A stretch of 63,144 nt of DNA, counting the filler, from Reclinomonas americana ATCC 50394 (Eukaryota): the NCBI GenBank assembly GCA_048213135.1. It is 51 parts of 51 records of this genome, joined end to end, with 100 filler letters (N's around TTAATTAATTAA, not from the genome) between each part and the next. Parts side by side here need not be neighbours in the genome. Positions count along the whole stretch, not along the records: positions 8,730 to 9,870 come from AFZH01026320.1; positions 9,971 to 11,116 come from AFZH01026321.1; positions 11,217 to 12,362 come from AFZH01026322.1; positions 12,463 to 13,607 come from AFZH01026323.1; positions 13,708 to 14,851 come from AFZH01026324.1; positions 14,952 to 16,096 come from AFZH01026325.1; positions 16,197 to 17,340 come from AFZH01026326.1; positions 17,441 to 18,581 come from AFZH01026327.1; 43 more parts are not named here. One strand, given 5' to 3'. The position numbers were made by a program, and so were the translations under genes. This document shows, in pieces, positions 8,838 through 57,080 of this stretch (positions within the stretch are counted from its first letter, which is position 1; each line of letters begins with the position of its first letter). The notes beneath the pieces were generated by a model. That model had not been told where the DNA came from. It did not search any database and saw only the letters and a list, made by a program, of their open reading frames with translations.

Positions 8838-9510
8838 CGGCTTCGGCACCACCTTGCGCACCGGCGCACGGAAATGCTGCTTGGCATGCGCGACAAACTC
8901 CAGCGACGGATCGTTAAAGATAGCGTCAAAGTCCAAGCCGTGCTTGAGAATGGCCTCGAAGAACGGAATGACCATGGCATTGACATCCCACCACGTCATC
9001 AATGCGGCGGTCTTGGGCAGCCGCTTCACGGCCAGTTGCATGGACAGCTGGCGCAAACGCGCTGAGTTGGCCATGCGTTCCCGCACGCGCTTCATGTTGG
9101 CCGTGGAGGTCAGCAACTGGTGGTCGTGAGAGAGATACGTGAGTGCACAGCGCGAGAGGGCGTGAGGAGACGGTCAACGAAACTCTCGTGGCGACCGGGG
9201 TGGCCAGCAAGCGCAGCATCTGCGGATTGCTCTTCTCCTGCTGCGCCTCCTGCAGCAATGCGTCGACGTACAGGCGCACCTCGTCGGGTGTGCGCTGCTC
9301 CAGTTCAGCTGTGCGCAAAAAGTAAAGGAATGGGTGAGCGATCAACTCAACACTGTCTTCGAGGAAGTGAGGAATTGCGCAACGATAGTCGGGCATCACT
9401 TCGCTCCAGTCCTCCTGGCCCGAGGCCGCTGACTTGTAGCGTCCCCACCGGCACACGGCCTTGATTACGGCACGGTGCTCCTCGCGAAGCCAGGTTGGGT
9501 CGAAGAGATC
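8838..9510 (-). CDS. CHD-family chromatin remodeller, SANT/SLIDE-like region (spliced fragment)
   Basis: WLREEHRAVIKAVCRWGRY and WWDVN...AILKHGLDFDAIFNDPSLEF resemble the post-helicase region of CHD6-9-type proteins. Confidence 0.6.
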
Positions 9511-9755
9511 CTGCGCAAATGAGAAGGGAGTGAGCAAGGGCAGGAGAACTGACAGGAGAAAAAGGGAGTAAGGGATGAGGTAAGGAAGGCAGGCGCAAGA
9601 GACGAGAGCGTGTGCCAAGGGAGGATTGTGTGCGTGTGTGACAGAGACATACTGTGTTCCACTTGTTTCGATGTAAGATCACGACATAAATGGAGAGAGT
9701 GGAGTTTCTCCCCTTCTTGGCAGACAGAGAATGACTGTGCCTCTCATCTCCAATA

Positions 9756-9834
<79 letters not shown>

Positions 9835-10169
9835 CCTACTCCTCCTCCGTCCTCCTCCTCCTCCTCCTCCNNNNNNNNNNNNNNNNNNNNNNNNNNNNNN
9901 NNNNNNNNNNNNNNTTAATTAATTAANNNNNNNNNNNNNNNNNNNNNNNNNNNNNNNNNNNNNNNNNNNNGCTCCTCTCAACTGCGTTGCGCAGAATCCA
10001 CCCGACTTGTTCCTGACGACCATCAAGACCAGCCCACCCTTCATGCTGGCGTTGCAGGCCAACGAGGGCGTCAACCTGGTGCGTTGGGACGTTCCCTTAG
10101 TTGCCTGTGTATCGATGAGTGCTCTGTGCACTGACAGCGAGATGGTGGGATGCAGTTGACGGCCGCAGC

Positions 10170-10890
10170 TGGACTGTGGGCACAGACAGAGACGGCGATC
10201 TTCCATCGCATCTTCTCCAAGCACTGCAGGGCACCGCGAGCGCCCGGCGCCAAGCCGCCACTGGTGCTGGACATTGGAGTGCGTTGCTTGCGTGGAGTCT
10301 TTCGCTGTAAACTTCCGCTCACCGTTTATTGTGCAGGCGTTCGTGGGCTACTTTGGCACGATGGCTGCCGTGTACGGCTGCCGTGTGTACTTTTTCGAGG
10401 CCAACCCACAGCTGCATCCGGTCATTCGCCTGTCGCTGGAGCTGAATGGCGTCTCGCACCTGTGCACCATCTTTGAGAACGTGGTCACCGACAAGAGCGG
10501 CGTGACGTACGGTCTGCTGCCAATGGAGGACATCATGTCGATGCGTGTGATGCCGCTGCCCGGCGGCAACGTCACCTCCATTGCCGTTGGTGATGTGGTT
10601 CACGAGGACGTAGTGGCGGCCAAGATTGACGTGGAGGGACACGAATATGGCGTATTCCGCGGCATGGAGCAGCTGTTCCGCAACCACCGCGTGCACAACA
10701 TGGTGGTGGAGGTCAAGGAGGTTCGTAGGCCCTCTCCTTCCCTCCTCTGTCTGCCTCTCGTGTCACATCTGTGCTGCAGATCCCCGAGTCGGACCACAGC
10801 CGCAAGGTGAAGTTGGAGTGGTTGTGGTCGCACTTTGAGCGTCAAGGCTCCACTCGCGCAGTCAACTGGCGAGAGCAGTACTATACCAAG
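10170..10890 (+). CDS. FkbM-family SAM methyltransferase (spliced)
   Basis: VLDIG|AFVGYF, RVYFFEANPQ and KIDVEGHE motifs with GT-AG introns. Confidence 0.85.
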
Positions 10891-11216
10891 GTTCGTACCA
10901 TCCAATCGACGCATGACGTCTTCTTCGTGATTGGCTCACTCGCACGCCTACGTGCGTCGGCGGCTAGGTTCCCGAGAAATTCAACCTGGATCCGCGCAAT
11001 CAATGCAATGTGCGTTCTTCTCCCCGGTGCGCCAGTGGCATGTGTGATTGTGTCAACTGAGGGGCTTGATGCCATGCAGATGTGCGAAATCGACCGCTCA
11101 TGGACCACGCTGACCCNNNNNNNNNNNNNNNNNNNNNNNNNNNNNNNNNNNNNNNNNNNNTTAATTAATTAANNNNNNNNNNNNNNNNNNNNNNNNNNNN
11201 NNNNNNNNNNNNNNNN

Positions 11217-54300: not shown

Positions 54301-54607
54301 GGCAGTCGAACGAGGTCACAGACGTCAATCGCCAGCAGTTGCCAGTTGCCACGCCACAGCGGTATTTCTCTGTGTTGTTGTCTCCTGTTGCTCCTCCGGC
54401 TGGTGCTGCTGTGGCTGCTCCTGATGCAGGTGCTCGCGATCGCTTCCAAATGGCCACTGATTCGCATGCCCCTCGTCGCGCTGTTCGCTCCAATCTGATG
54501 GGTGTTGNNNNNNNNNNNNNNNNNNNNNNNNNNNNNNNNNNNNNNNNNNNNTTAATTAATTAANNNNNNNNNNNNNNNNNNNNNNNNNNNNNNNNNNNNN
54601 NNNNNNN

Positions 54608-55457
54608 TCAGATCCCATTGCTCTCCATTGACCTGTTGGTTGACATGAATGAGTTGTGATGAGCTGCAACTAGGTGCAGTGCGCGTCGCAGGAGACACAC
54701 ACCAGTGCGACGCAGGCGCTCTCGGCCAGCGACTTGGCAATGACGCCAGCAATGTCGAGCGGAGTCGTCTTCCACGCCACGCCCGGCACCTCACGGCCCG
54801 TCGGCAGCGTAATGGTAATCGGTCGATTCTCCGCCGCCTTGGCTGTCATGATGAGATGACAGAGAGAGCAAACGAAATCGGCAGTTAGTCACTCCCGAGT
54901 CAGCAAGAGTCAACTGACATGCAGCAGCACACACACACCGCTGGCACGCACCTTCAATGGCCGCCTGCTGCTCGGCATACAGGCGATCAAACAGATCAAT
55001 GCGGTACGGCACAAACTCGGGGACGGCAAAGTCCTCCACGCGCTTGCCCGCCGACCCAGAGGCAGCATCCTGCACCAAGAAAGCGCACAAAAGTGAGACA
55101 AGTCAAGAGGCGCGAATCACACTCTCTTGTCTCGAATTCCTCGCGTTGACAGACCATAAAAAGAGCTCACAGGAAAAGAAAGCGAGCGCACAAGGGAGAG
55201 AACACACACGCGCGCAAGCGACACACAACCAACACGAAACACTCCAAGAGGGTTCCGCGGTGGGGGGAGGTGCACGACAAGTGACATTTCCGAGGGCATG
55301 TGCAAACAACTTTTCTCTCTCACTCGCACGCGCACTCACGACTGACCTTGGCCGGCTTGGCGGCCTTGCCCTTGGGGCCCTTGGCCGGCTTCGGCGCAGC
55401 AGCTTCAGCAGCAGCGGGTGCAGCAGCAGCAGCAGCAGCAGCAGGTGCGTCACTCAT
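54608..55457 (-). CDS. TARS: Cytosolic threonyl-tRNA synthetase, N-terminus and TGS domain
   Basis: PEFVPYRIDLFDRL, ITITLPTGREVPGVAWKTTPLDIA and VNGEQWDL, across several introns. Confidence 0.93.
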
Positions 55458-55546
55458 TCACTCAATTGAACACAAAAGTGTGTGAGAATCACGAGAAATT
55501 TCGACCTTCATCTCCGCCGTCGTTGTCTTGTGCAACTGCAATCATC

Positions 55547-55722
55547 ATGGTGCGGCTCTCAGGCTTGTGAGAGTTCTCCTTGCACCATGTGCTTACAAGT
55601 GCGTTGTCTTCAGGGCGGACTCATTGCACGTATGATTGGCGTCTTCCGTCGTCCTCCACAACGTGGCGACTTTGAGTGCCCCGGCATCACGCACCCCGTG
55701 CACATCTCTGTCGACGAGTTTG
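55547..55722 (+). CDS. Probable penicillin-acylase family (peptidase S45) N-terminus
   Basis: M|GGLIARMIGVFRRPPQRGDFECPGITHPVHISVDEFG|, with an intron at 55550-55613. Resembles G...PGL..PV.I.RD..G(VPHI). Confidence 0.5.
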
Positions 55723-57080
55723 GTGCGCTCTCTCTCTCTCTCNNNNNNNNNNNNNNNNNNNNNNNNNNNNNNNNNNNNNNNNNNNNTTAATTAATTAANN
55801 NNNNNNNNNNNNNNNNNNNNNNNNNNNNNNNNNNNNNNNNNNGAGAGAGAGAGGACGAGGAGGAGGTCATGTGCAGCGCTGAAGATGCGTGCAGTGAGAA
55901 GGGAGAAAGAGATAAAGAGCATACGTTCAAGTTCTCTGTATTTCTCACACACATTCTGACGCACAGAGAGAGAGAGAGAGAGAGGAAGAAGAGGAGGTCG
56001 TGTGCAACGGTGAGTAAGAACGCAGTGAAAAGGGAGAGAGAGAGAGAGCTGAACACATTCAAGGTCTCTTCTCCCTTCTCTTTCCTCTCCCTCCCCCCTT
56101 CTCTCTCCCACTCCTTCACCGCACTAGCTTCTTCCACTGACCCTTATTCGTTGCTCTCTCACAGGCAACCCCTGCGGCCACTGCTACCACCACCGACCCG
56201 CCAAAGAAGAAAAAGTTCCCGAAGTGGCGCTTCATCTTTGGCACCATCTTTCTGGTGCGCTTTTCCGTGCCGCCCCGCGCACTTCTATTGTTCTCTCGTG
56301 TCTCATTCAACGCGCAGGCCATTGCACTGCCGTACACGGCGGTGGAGACGAGTCTGCTCGACAATGTCATGCTGCGTGGTCGGCGTGAGCGCAATGCCAA
56401 GATCAAGCCCGAGGATTATGTGAACCGTGAGGCGGTGAAGGAGCTGCTGGCCGGGCACACCAAGGATGTTGCGTGGGGGAAGGAGGATGGAGGAGAAGGG
56501 GGAAAAAGGGGGAAGGGAGAGAGAGGTGAAGAGAGTGAGGGACTGCGATTGCTCTGTGGAGGATGGAAGAAGGAGAGAATGGGAGAAGTGCCTGAGAGGC
56601 CGTTCTCGTGTAAGGATGCTGCATAGAAAGTGGAGAAGGAAAGAGGATGTAAATGGACGAGAGAACGAGAATGAGTGACTGCCCTCCTGTAAGGATGCTG
56701 CGTCAAGCAAGACAATGAGAATGGGAGACGAGAAGAGAAGCGAGCAAGAGACGCGAGCGAGTGACTCGCTGAAACCTCTGTCAACGAGATCACCCTGATT
56801 AATAACTCTGCTCGCTGTGGAAAATCGTCGCGTGTTCGCGGCGACTCATACAGTTGCTGCGCATTACCCTGCCTTGAATCTCGCTGCATTGCTGAGCGAA
56901 CAGAAGGAGCGGGGAGAGTTGTTGTGATTTTGTTGCAATTCAGTTCTCTCAGATGCTCTTTCCGTACTCTACAATATCCTNNNNNNNNNNNNNNNNNNNN
57001 NNNNNNNNNNNNNNNNNNNNNNNNTTAATTAATTAANNNNNNNNNNNNNNNNNNNNNNNNNNNNNNNNNNNNNNNNNNNN

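What the first reader, a model, noticed from the sequence alone, without database searches (positions are those of the whole stretch)
9309..56474. An atypical shifted 5' splice site, GTTGCG(T/C), is a common donor class in this eukaryote
Seen: ordinary donors here are GTGCGT, GTTCGT, GTACGT, GTCCGT or GTGAG, mostly after an exonic G. A second class carries one extra T. It is supported by reading frame in conserved genes: BUB1 13932-14432, H2A 27772-27663 (-), cyclophilin 28266-28333, aminopeptidase 37660-37589 (-) and NF1-like 49044-49122. It is likely at 9383 (-), 45690 and 56468. In all eight cases the last exon base is not G. Known: rare mammalian GTTAAGT donors are recognised by shifted or bulged U1 pairing. 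Inference: this lineage uses the shifted register routinely, possibly with a variant U1 or U6 snRNA.
Basis: partly seen in the sequence, partly recalled or inferred. Interest (0 to 1): 0.72.

Follow-up and report, generated by a model that had tools for sequence, protein, structure and literature searches.

The report
One-base-shifted intron starts in a protist
In this unidentified, intron-rich single-celled eukaryote about one intron in five to eight begins with GTTGCG, the organism's usual intron-start word read one base out of step, a way of marking introns that is only a rare exception in humans and that the standard splicing RNA could hardly recognise.

Summary
All eight sites start GTTGCG(T/C) after A, C or T. 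Homology pins the cut in H2A and cyclophilin H, favours it in the aminopeptidase, and leaves BUB1 and the 'NF1-like' gene to frame alone. A motif-blind gene model picked GTTGCG at 7 of 102 donors, 0.88 expected. In my curated set 11 to 18 donors are shifted against 72 ordinary (13-20%); G at -1 is 0 of 18 against 66 of 72, and the conserved G sits at +6 instead of +5. Standard U1 barely pairs with these sites in either register; a U1 with a recoded arm pairs only in the +1 register. That is my best mechanism, but it is inferred: no RNA data, no U1 or U6 in this window. The scan found this class before on other pieces of the same genome (35 notes), and one unchecked note reports a matching variant U1. 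New variant of a known kind.

The parts
27663..27772 (-). H2A intron 3, T|GTTGCGT...CAG, 110 nt, phase 2
   Evidence: Pinned: upstream exon ends at chain residue 131 and downstream exon starts at 132 of 6w4l_A, no room for an extra residue; frame
28266..28333 (+). Cyclophilin H (PPIH/CYP22-type) intron 1, T|GTTGCGC...CAG, 68 nt, phase 2
   Evidence: Pinned: 55 of 59 parsed homologs have one residue between NP and the VFFD-type motif; profile score 94.7 bits vs 87.1 (GC at +4) and 86.7 (GT +21)
37589..37660 (-). M1 aminopeptidase intron, A|GTTGCGT...CAG, 72 nt, phase 2
   Evidence: Read-through has a stop; spacing of 15 residues is modal in homologs, 34 of 93 parsed; 77.2 bits vs 73.0 (GC) and 60.5 (GT -24)
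13932..14432 (+). BUB1/Mad3 intron, A|GTTGCGT...CAG, 501 nt, phase 2
   Evidence: Gene confirmed; read-through has stops; picked motif-blind; junction not pinned by homology
14644..14650 (+). Second BUB1 donor T|GTTGCGT, acceptor beyond contig end
   Evidence: Exon matches Pfam PF08311 up to this point; picked (trained on that exon), not among the picks
49044..49122 (+). Intron A|GTTGCGT...CAG, 79 nt, in the gene called NF1-like (name unconfirmed)
   Evidence: Frame; picked motif-blind
49369..49430 (+). Further intron A|GTTGCGG...TAG, 62 nt, same gene
   Evidence: Open frame in five-intron model; my choice among frame-compatible sites
9309..9383 (-). Intron C|GTTGCGC...CAG, 75 nt
   Evidence: Open frame; picked motif-blind; read-through is also open in the coding frame, so the intron rests on composition and signals
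9117..9183 (-). Variant shifted intron A|GTTTCGT...CAG, 67 nt
   Evidence: Open frame; chosen by motif among in-frame sites
8383..8439 (+). Intron A|GTTGCGT...CAG, 57 nt, after a 16-nt exon
   Evidence: Model joins a signal-peptide-like start to the next exon in frame
11308..11375 (-). Intron A|GTTGCGC...CAG, 68 nt, phase 0
   Evidence: Open frame in four-intron model
5838..5915 (+). Variant shifted intron A|GTTTCGT...CAG, 78 nt
   Evidence: Open frame; picked motif-blind
45690..45696 (+). Donor A|GTTGCGT ending a 975-nt exon with an fn3-like domain; acceptor beyond contig end
   Evidence: Picked motif-blind; weak PF00041 hit in exon
56468..56474 (+). Donor T|GTTGCGT; acceptor beyond contig end
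   Evidence: Picked motif-blind
21322..21328 (-). Likely donor C|GTTGCGT; acceptor not in contig
   Evidence: Boundary of coding and low-complexity sequence; other GT sites nearby not excluded
29416..29494 (+). Possible intron T|GTTGCGT...CAG, 79 nt
   Evidence: Frame-compatible; weak
62294..62365 (-). Possible intron A|GTTGCGT...CAG, 72 nt
   Evidence: Frame-compatible, but an in-frame T|GTGTGG donor 9 nt upstream fits too
61194..61250 (+). Possible variant intron A|GTTGCAG...CAG, 57 nt
   Evidence: Frame-compatible, picked motif-blind; lacks G at +6
41301..41410 (-). Second copy of the H2A shifted intron (not counted)
   Evidence: 96% copy of contig 27365-28506; donor unchanged
41898..41965 (+). 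Second copy of the cyclophilin H shifted intron (not counted)

Best explanation
These are ordinary major-spliceosome (GT-AG) introns whose 5' site is read one base out of register. The organism's recognition word is G-(G/T)-T-G-C-G-T. In the ordinary form the cut falls after the first G (G|GTGCGT); in the second form position two is T, the only GT is at the start of the word, and the cut falls before it (N|GTTGCGT). Shown: the two classes exist and their conserved positions are slid by one base. Inferred: a U1 snRNA whose 5' arm is recoded to pair with UGCGU binds both, its C9 pairing with G-1 in one class and with G+1 in the other; the cut is then set at the available GU, and U6 takes up the GU at +6/+7 with one base looped out. 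Because the shifted form has no exon-side G pair to lean on, it needs the strongest intronic word, which is why it is far more rigid than the ordinary class. Whether one U1 serves both classes or a second U1 with A at position 8 is dedicated to the shifted class is open.
For: Slid conservation: +5 G 67 of 72 ordinary vs 0 of 18 shifted; +6 G 8 of 72 vs 17 of 18. The exon-side A also slides: A at -2 in 39 of 72 ordinary, A at -1 in 11 of 18 shifted (20% background, p=2e-4). Phase slides as a one-base move predicts: ordinary 46 of 71 phase 0 and 8 phase 2; shifted 10 of 18 phase 2 (p=2e-4). Rigidity: GCG core 15 of 18 vs 24 of 72 (p=2e-4); 5 of the 6 ordinary donors without G-1 are also GTGCGT. 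Forced-register energies: for the four arms with G at position 5, all 18 shifted sites pair better in the +1 register (medians -4.8 to -11.1 kcal/mol, 0 in the normal register); arm ACGCACC serves both classes (-9.1 ordinary, -6.8 shifted). Rest of the intron is ordinary. Precedents: shifted U1 register in humans (PMC4856993, passages); recoded U1 arms in Entamoeba and Mastigamoeba (10.1101/2022.06.08.495308, sections 14 and 15); in C. elegans unc-73(e936) a G-to-T change at +1 activates a -1 site, and a compensatory U1 raises use of the -1 and UU sites (PMC11098459, passages).
Against: No transcript shows the junctions. No U1 or U6 gene lies in the window and the genome is not held. The U1 arms that pair well are hypothetical except ACGUACC, which came from other organisms; the gene beside one such U1 has five in-frame donors, three after a non-G base, and none is shifted (L039), so a recoded arm alone does not produce the class. 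No U1 with A at position 8 was found among 106 pattern hits. Published work argues that U1 position does not set the cut site and that U5/U6 do (PMC11162779; PMC11732430; passages). My donor list was curated partly by motif, which inflates the contrasts; only one search is motif-blind. A plain slide would also give GTTGAG and GTTGTG donors; none was seen among 18.
Confidence: 0.62

Rival explanations
1. The class is real but is set at the U6/U5 hand-over, not by U1: it is this lineage's version of the U6-strong, exon-independent donor class (NN//GURAG elsewhere), read by a U6 with an altered or slid ACAGA box or by changed tri-snRNP proteins such as SNRNP27K.
For: Loss of the -1 G preference together with a rigid intronic word mirrors the two published classes AG//GUNNN and NN//GURAG (PMC11732430, passages). 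A shifted U6 register has been shown at STAT3 (PMC11162779, passages). 14 of 26 sites promoted by C. elegans SNRP-27 M141T have G at +6 (PMC6140464, section 8). L039 has a recoded U1 without shifted donors in five introns.
Against: The published U6 class keeps G at +5; here it is at +6. The slid exon-side A at -1 and the seven-base word fit the longer U1 arm better than the short U6 pairing (inference). An unchecked scan note reports a U1 arm matching this class (e1-7447323). The SNRP-27 paper found the switch persisted when +6 G was changed.
Confidence: 0.22
2. The cut is not before GTT. The introns are GC-AG introns starting three bases further in (GTT|GCG...), or UU-starting introns cut after the G.
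For: An in-frame GC at +4 exists in 12 of 14 complete candidates. For most genes homology cannot see one extra residue. C. elegans can splice at a UU site.
Against: H2A leaves no room for an extra residue; cyclophilin H has one residue there in 55 of 59 parsed homologs and never two; aminopeptidase scores 4 bits better as stated; the two GTTTCG variants have no GC. A UU start needs a different acceptor frame: an AG in that frame within 15 nt exists in 3 of 14, none a YAG. Shifting both ends by one gives Met in cyclophilin H, seen in 0 of 53 homologs, though it costs only 1.1 bits.
Confidence: 0.07
3. No separate class: GTTGCG is the tail of one degenerate GTNNNN consensus or a by-product of curation, or the introns are copies of one mobile element.
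For: Ordinary donors are loose at +3 and +4 (19 different pentamers in 72). A first crude test (GT words 45-125 nt upstream of branch-plus-YAG motifs) did not rank GTTGCG among its top 25 words.
Against: Independent-position expectation 0.31 vs 15 observed among 90 donors; motif-blind 7 of 102 vs 0.88. Intron bodies are no more alike among shifted introns (median local score 6.0, maximum 13.5) than among ordinary ones (6.5, 17.5).
Confidence: 0.05

Closest known systems
Human 5' splice sites read by U1 in the +1 shifted register (Roca and Krainer 2009, seen only as a citation; described in PMC4856993 and PMC11162779, passages)
   Same: GT donor that looks like the consensus with one extra base; conserved G moved to +6; cut one base upstream of the U1 register.
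   Different: In humans all non-canonical registers together are put at about 1.5% of sites and are read by the standard U1; here 13-20% of curated donors, a fixed GCG core, and almost no pairing with the standard arm.
Entamoeba GUUUGU(U) donors with U1 arm ACAAAC, and Mastigamoeba U1 arm ACGUAC (10.1101/2022.06.08.495308, passages and sections 14, 15)
   Same: Atypical donors in a protist matched by a recoded U1 arm; Mastigamoeba donors GUGCGC resemble the ordinary class here.
   Different: Those keep the normal register (G at +5) and have one class; here two classes coexist one base apart.
Two major donor classes AG//GUNNN and NN//GURAG (PMC11732430, passages)
   Same: One class leans on the exon end, the other on a strong intronic word.
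   Different: Both published classes share one register; here the ordinary class has both G-1 and G+5, and the exon-independent class has its G at +6.
C. elegans unc-73(e936) with suppressors sup-39 (U1), snrp-27 and snu-66 (PMC11098459 passages; PMC6140464 passages and sections 5 part 2 and 8)
   Same: A G-to-T change at +1 of a consensus donor, with cutting at the new GU one base upstream: the same geometry.
   Different: A mutant allele with three competing cryptic sites, not a natural genome-wide class.

Membership tests
U2-type (major spliceosome) GT-AG intron | GT start and AG end | tested here: met
   All 14 complete candidates; 13 end CAG, 1 TAG
U2-type (major spliceosome) GT-AG intron | Loose branch-site motif and length like the other introns of the genome | tested here: met
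   YTVAC near the 3' end in 11 of 14 vs 42 of 60; median length 72 vs 67, p=0.25
U2-type (major spliceosome) GT-AG intron | Removed from the mRNA at these bases | not testable with these tools
   No run was listed; inferred from frame and homology
U12-type intron | RTATCCTT donor and CCTTRAC branch site (motifs recalled) | tested here: not met
   Donor is GTTGCG; a CCT(T)RAC-like word in 1 of 14 vs 2 of 60 ordinary
Shifted-register 5' splice site (Roca and Krainer type) | Consensus positions displaced by +1 | tested here: met
   +6 G 17 of 18, +5 G 0 of 18; A at -1; phase shift
Shifted-register 5' splice site (Roca and Krainer type) | Stable pairing with the standard U1 arm in the shifted register | tested here: not met
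   Median 0 kcal/mol in both registers; shifted better in only 8 of 18
Shifted-register 5' splice site (Roca and Krainer type) | Pairing with the organism's own U1 shown by compensatory change | not testable with these tools
   No U1 in window, genome not held
U6-side class NN//GURAG | No exon-side G preference | tested here: met
   0 of 18 vs 66 of 72
U6-side class NN//GURAG | G at +5 able to pair with U6 C42 in the normal register | tested here: not met
   0 of 18; pairing rule from PMC11162779 passage
Introner-type (mobile-element-derived) introns | Intron bodies form a sequence family | tested here: not met
   Pairwise local scores no higher than among ordinary introns

The most novel reading that the evidence does not exclude
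The organism runs two U1 snRNPs (and perhaps a matching U6 register) inside the major spliceosome: one for G|GTNNG donors and a second, with A at position 8, dedicated to N|GTTGCGT donors in the +1 register. That would be a second, separately decoded donor code covering about a fifth of introns. It fits the rigidity of the class, the energies (an ACGCAAC arm gives -11.1 kcal/mol on shifted sites but only -2.6 on ordinary G|GT sites, so it could hardly serve both) and an unchecked note of a U1 that pairs best with GTTGCG.
Probability: 0.25. Interest if true: 0.85.

Novelty: new variant of a known kind. Interest (0 to 1): 0.63.

Why it matters
How the cut site is fixed when the 5' splice site passes from U1 to U6 is still debated. 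A genome in which a fifth of introns carry the signal one base away from the cut gives thousands of natural cases for asking whether U1, U6, U5 or tri-snRNP proteins set the register, and it makes direct predictions for the snRNA sequences. It also offers a route for one-base intron sliding, and it would mislead gene finders trained on standard donors.

Tried and rejected
Own-genome search for U1: no genome held. RNA runs for window 41003-49562: none was listed, so no reads could be laid. Rfam on the window: 0 matches; a profile from ten control U1s found nothing in the window either. Exact 23-nt H2A stretch in metagenomes: 0 matches. U1 pattern scans: the control pattern found 12 loci in genome contigs, 10 confirmed as U1, and 0 in viral contigs; a variant-arm pattern gave 19 loci, of which 8 were scanned with Rfam, none U1, and the other 11 only inspected; the wider variant pattern gave 74 + 32 loci, 5 of 106 U1-like, all with arm ACGUACC, none with A at position 8; the pattern needs exact loop motifs and would miss a more divergent U1. 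A crude acceptor-anchored word test was too weak and did not rank GTTGCG. The first gene model was trained on some exons next to the sites and is not used as evidence; one search replaces it. BUB1 homolog search: no hit; PDB hits confirm the gene but imply 4-8 extra residues across the junction region, so they do not fix the cut. NF1 identity: nothing in Pfam, PDB, the representative library or the Atlas. Organism not identified: best aminopeptidase identity 62%. Searches contained coordinate or frame slips, corrected; one ordinary acceptor was one base off. Left out of all counts: four contigs I judged bacterial, the duplicate contig 41003-42140, and contigs without a clear model (for example 43479-44615, 47190-48326). 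Literature searches that found no report of such a class; most subscription journals are not in that library.
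Full report
What the window is. It is 51 unlinked contigs of about 1.14 kb joined by N-linkers; 27365-28506 and 41003-42140 are 96% copies of each other. Most contigs are from an intron-rich eukaryote; four look bacterial by my reading and were left out. The genome is not held, no RNA run was listed, and the organism stayed unidentified (best aminopeptidase hit 62%). 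'Jakobid-like' comes from an earlier scan note and was not tested.

Observation. All eight sites begin GTTGCG(T/C) after A, C or T, and the six complete ones end in CAG. Splicing as stated opens the frame in all six. In H2A the upstream exon aligns to residue 131 and the downstream exon from residue 132 of chain 6w4l_A, which fixes the cut. In cyclophilin H, 55 of 59 parsed homologs (75 hits, 16 not parsed, 4 without NP) have exactly one residue between NP and the VFFD-type motif; that residue is V, I or R in 53 of 53 and never M; the stated splice scores 94.7 bits against 93.6, 87.1 and 86.7 for three alternatives. In the aminopeptidase the stated splice gives the modal spacing (34 of 93 parsed, 120 hits; 14 residues in 29, 16 in 7) and 77.2 bits against 73.0 and 60.5. 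BUB1 is confirmed as a gene but its junction is not pinned. The NF1 name found no support.

Is it more than chance? GTTGCG makes up 0.86% of GT sites in the eukaryotic contigs. A gene model with no donor motif, trained without the contig under test, chose it for 7 of 102 donors in 32 contigs (0.88 expected, p=3e-5); eight similar control hexamers were not enriched. A cruder test was uninformative. I then curated gene models by open frame: 72 ordinary donors and 18 shifted ones (11 in complete introns, 4 without acceptor, 3 possible), so 13-20%. Under independent positions 0.31 GTTGCG donors are expected among 90; 15 are seen. This list was chosen partly by motif, so its contrasts are upper bounds.

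Anatomy. Ordinary donors have G at -1 in 66 of 72 and G at +5 in 67 of 72; shifted donors have 0 of 18 and 0 of 18, with G at +6 in 17 of 18. The exon-side A moves from -2 (39 of 72) to -1 (11 of 18). Phase moves from 0 (46 of 71; one donor had no phase) to 2 (10 of 18 against 8 of 71, p=2e-4). The shifted class is rigid: GCG core in 15 of 18 against 24 of 72, two GTTTCG, no GTTGAG or GTTGTG. Five of the six ordinary donors without G at -1 are GTGCGT. So whenever the exon does not end in G, the intron carries the strongest word, directly after GT or after GTT. Avoidance of G before GTTGCG is not shown here (0 of 15 against 7 of 43 background, p=0.07). Length, acceptor and branch-like motif match ordinary introns, there is no U12 signature, and the bodies are not a sequence family.

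Mechanism. With the standard U1 arm (from PMC4856993) the shifted sites have a median forced-duplex energy of 0 in both registers. With any of four arms that have G at position 5, all 18 pair better in the +1 register. ACGCACC serves both classes (-9.1 and -6.8 kcal/mol); ACGCAAC gives -11.1 on shifted sites but -2.6 on ordinary G|GT sites. These are model energies, and three of the four arms are hypothetical. My reading (0.62): a recoded U1 binds one word, G-(G/T)-T-G-C-G-T, and the cut goes to the available GU, with U6 taking +6/+7 across a one-base bulge. The classes and their slide are shown; U1 and U6 involvement is inferred. The C. elegans e936 allele shows the same geometry can be spliced and responds to a compensatory U1 (PMC11098459, passages). 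The main rival (0.22) puts the choice at U6/U5 or SNRNP27K (PMC11732430; PMC11162779; PMC6140464). A cut at GC or UU (0.07) fails in the two pinned genes but is untested in most others.

Looking for the U1. None lies in the window. A pattern that recovered 10 true U1s among 12 control hits was recast for arms with G at position 5. Among 106 hits five were U1-like, two distinct sequences, both with the Mastigamoeba-type arm ACGUACC; three of the five reach Rfam's gathering score. None has A at position 8. The gene beside one (L039) has five in-frame donors, GTACG or GTATG, three after a non-G base and none shifted: a small comparator showing that a recoded arm alone does not bring a shifted class. 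Earlier scan notes report a variant U1 in this genome that pairs best with GTTGCG; I could not see or check it.

Comparison with what is known. It works like the human shifted-register sites, but fails one of their defining features, pairing with the standard U1. It resembles Entamoeba and Mastigamoeba in the predicted U1 recoding, but those keep the normal register. It resembles the U5/U6 two-class scheme in logic, not in register. A tunicate paper mentions a shifted register only as a possibility (PMC13326754, passages); PMC10581693 was seen only in a search listing. Roca and Krainer 2009 was seen only as a citation. No supplements were read. Eight searches found no report of a genome-wide shifted class; the library lacks most subscription papers.

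Verdict. Real, common, and a new variant of a known kind. The scan has noted it 35 times, on other pieces of this one genome; those notes are leads, not support. Interest 0.63; 0.85 if a dedicated second U1 is shown.

Noticed in passing
whole window: 51 unlinked contigs of about 1.14 kb in falling length order, joined by N-TTAATTAATTAA-N linkers; neighbours across a linker are not genomic neighbours.
   Followed up: yes
1-1145, 32330-33470, 49663-50800, 58316-59448: High-GC, intronless contigs that look bacterial (transposase-, chemoreceptor-, glycosyltransferase- and regulator-like by recall, no call); probable contamination or co-sampled bacteria.
   Followed up: no
27365-28506 and 41003-42140: H2A with four introns and cyclophilin H lie head to head, start codons about 107 nt apart; two copies differ at 45 aligned positions, one inside an ordinary donor (G|GTGTGA vs G|GTGAGA at 28433), none in the two GTTGCG words.
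   Followed up: partly
8367-8382 (+): A 16-nt exon inside a signal-peptide-like sequence, between an ordinary and a shifted intron.
   Followed up: partly
57081-58215 (-): Tandem 95-residue repeats (cadherin-like by recall) with an intron at the same place in each; the three donors differ (GTCAGT, GTGTGT, GTTCGT), all after G.
   Followed up: partly
2496-3642 (-): Intronless-looking gene with 25-residue repeats (75-nt period) resembling bacterial surface-protein repeats (DUF285-like, recalled).
   Followed up: no
L039 1638-1803, L102, L066; L071, L082: Two distinct U1-like genes with arm ACGUACC in metagenome contigs of unidentified eukaryotes; L039 has tRNA genes just upstream and a neighbouring gene with GTACG/GTATG donors, a further case of U1 and donor matching as in Mastigamoeba.
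   Followed up: partly
L002-L011: Ten bacterial genome bins in genome contigs carry short contigs with eukaryotic U1 genes, a sign of eukaryotic contamination.
   Followed up: no
53373-54507 (+): Broken reading frame that looks like a retroelement fragment (recalled, no call).
   Followed up: no
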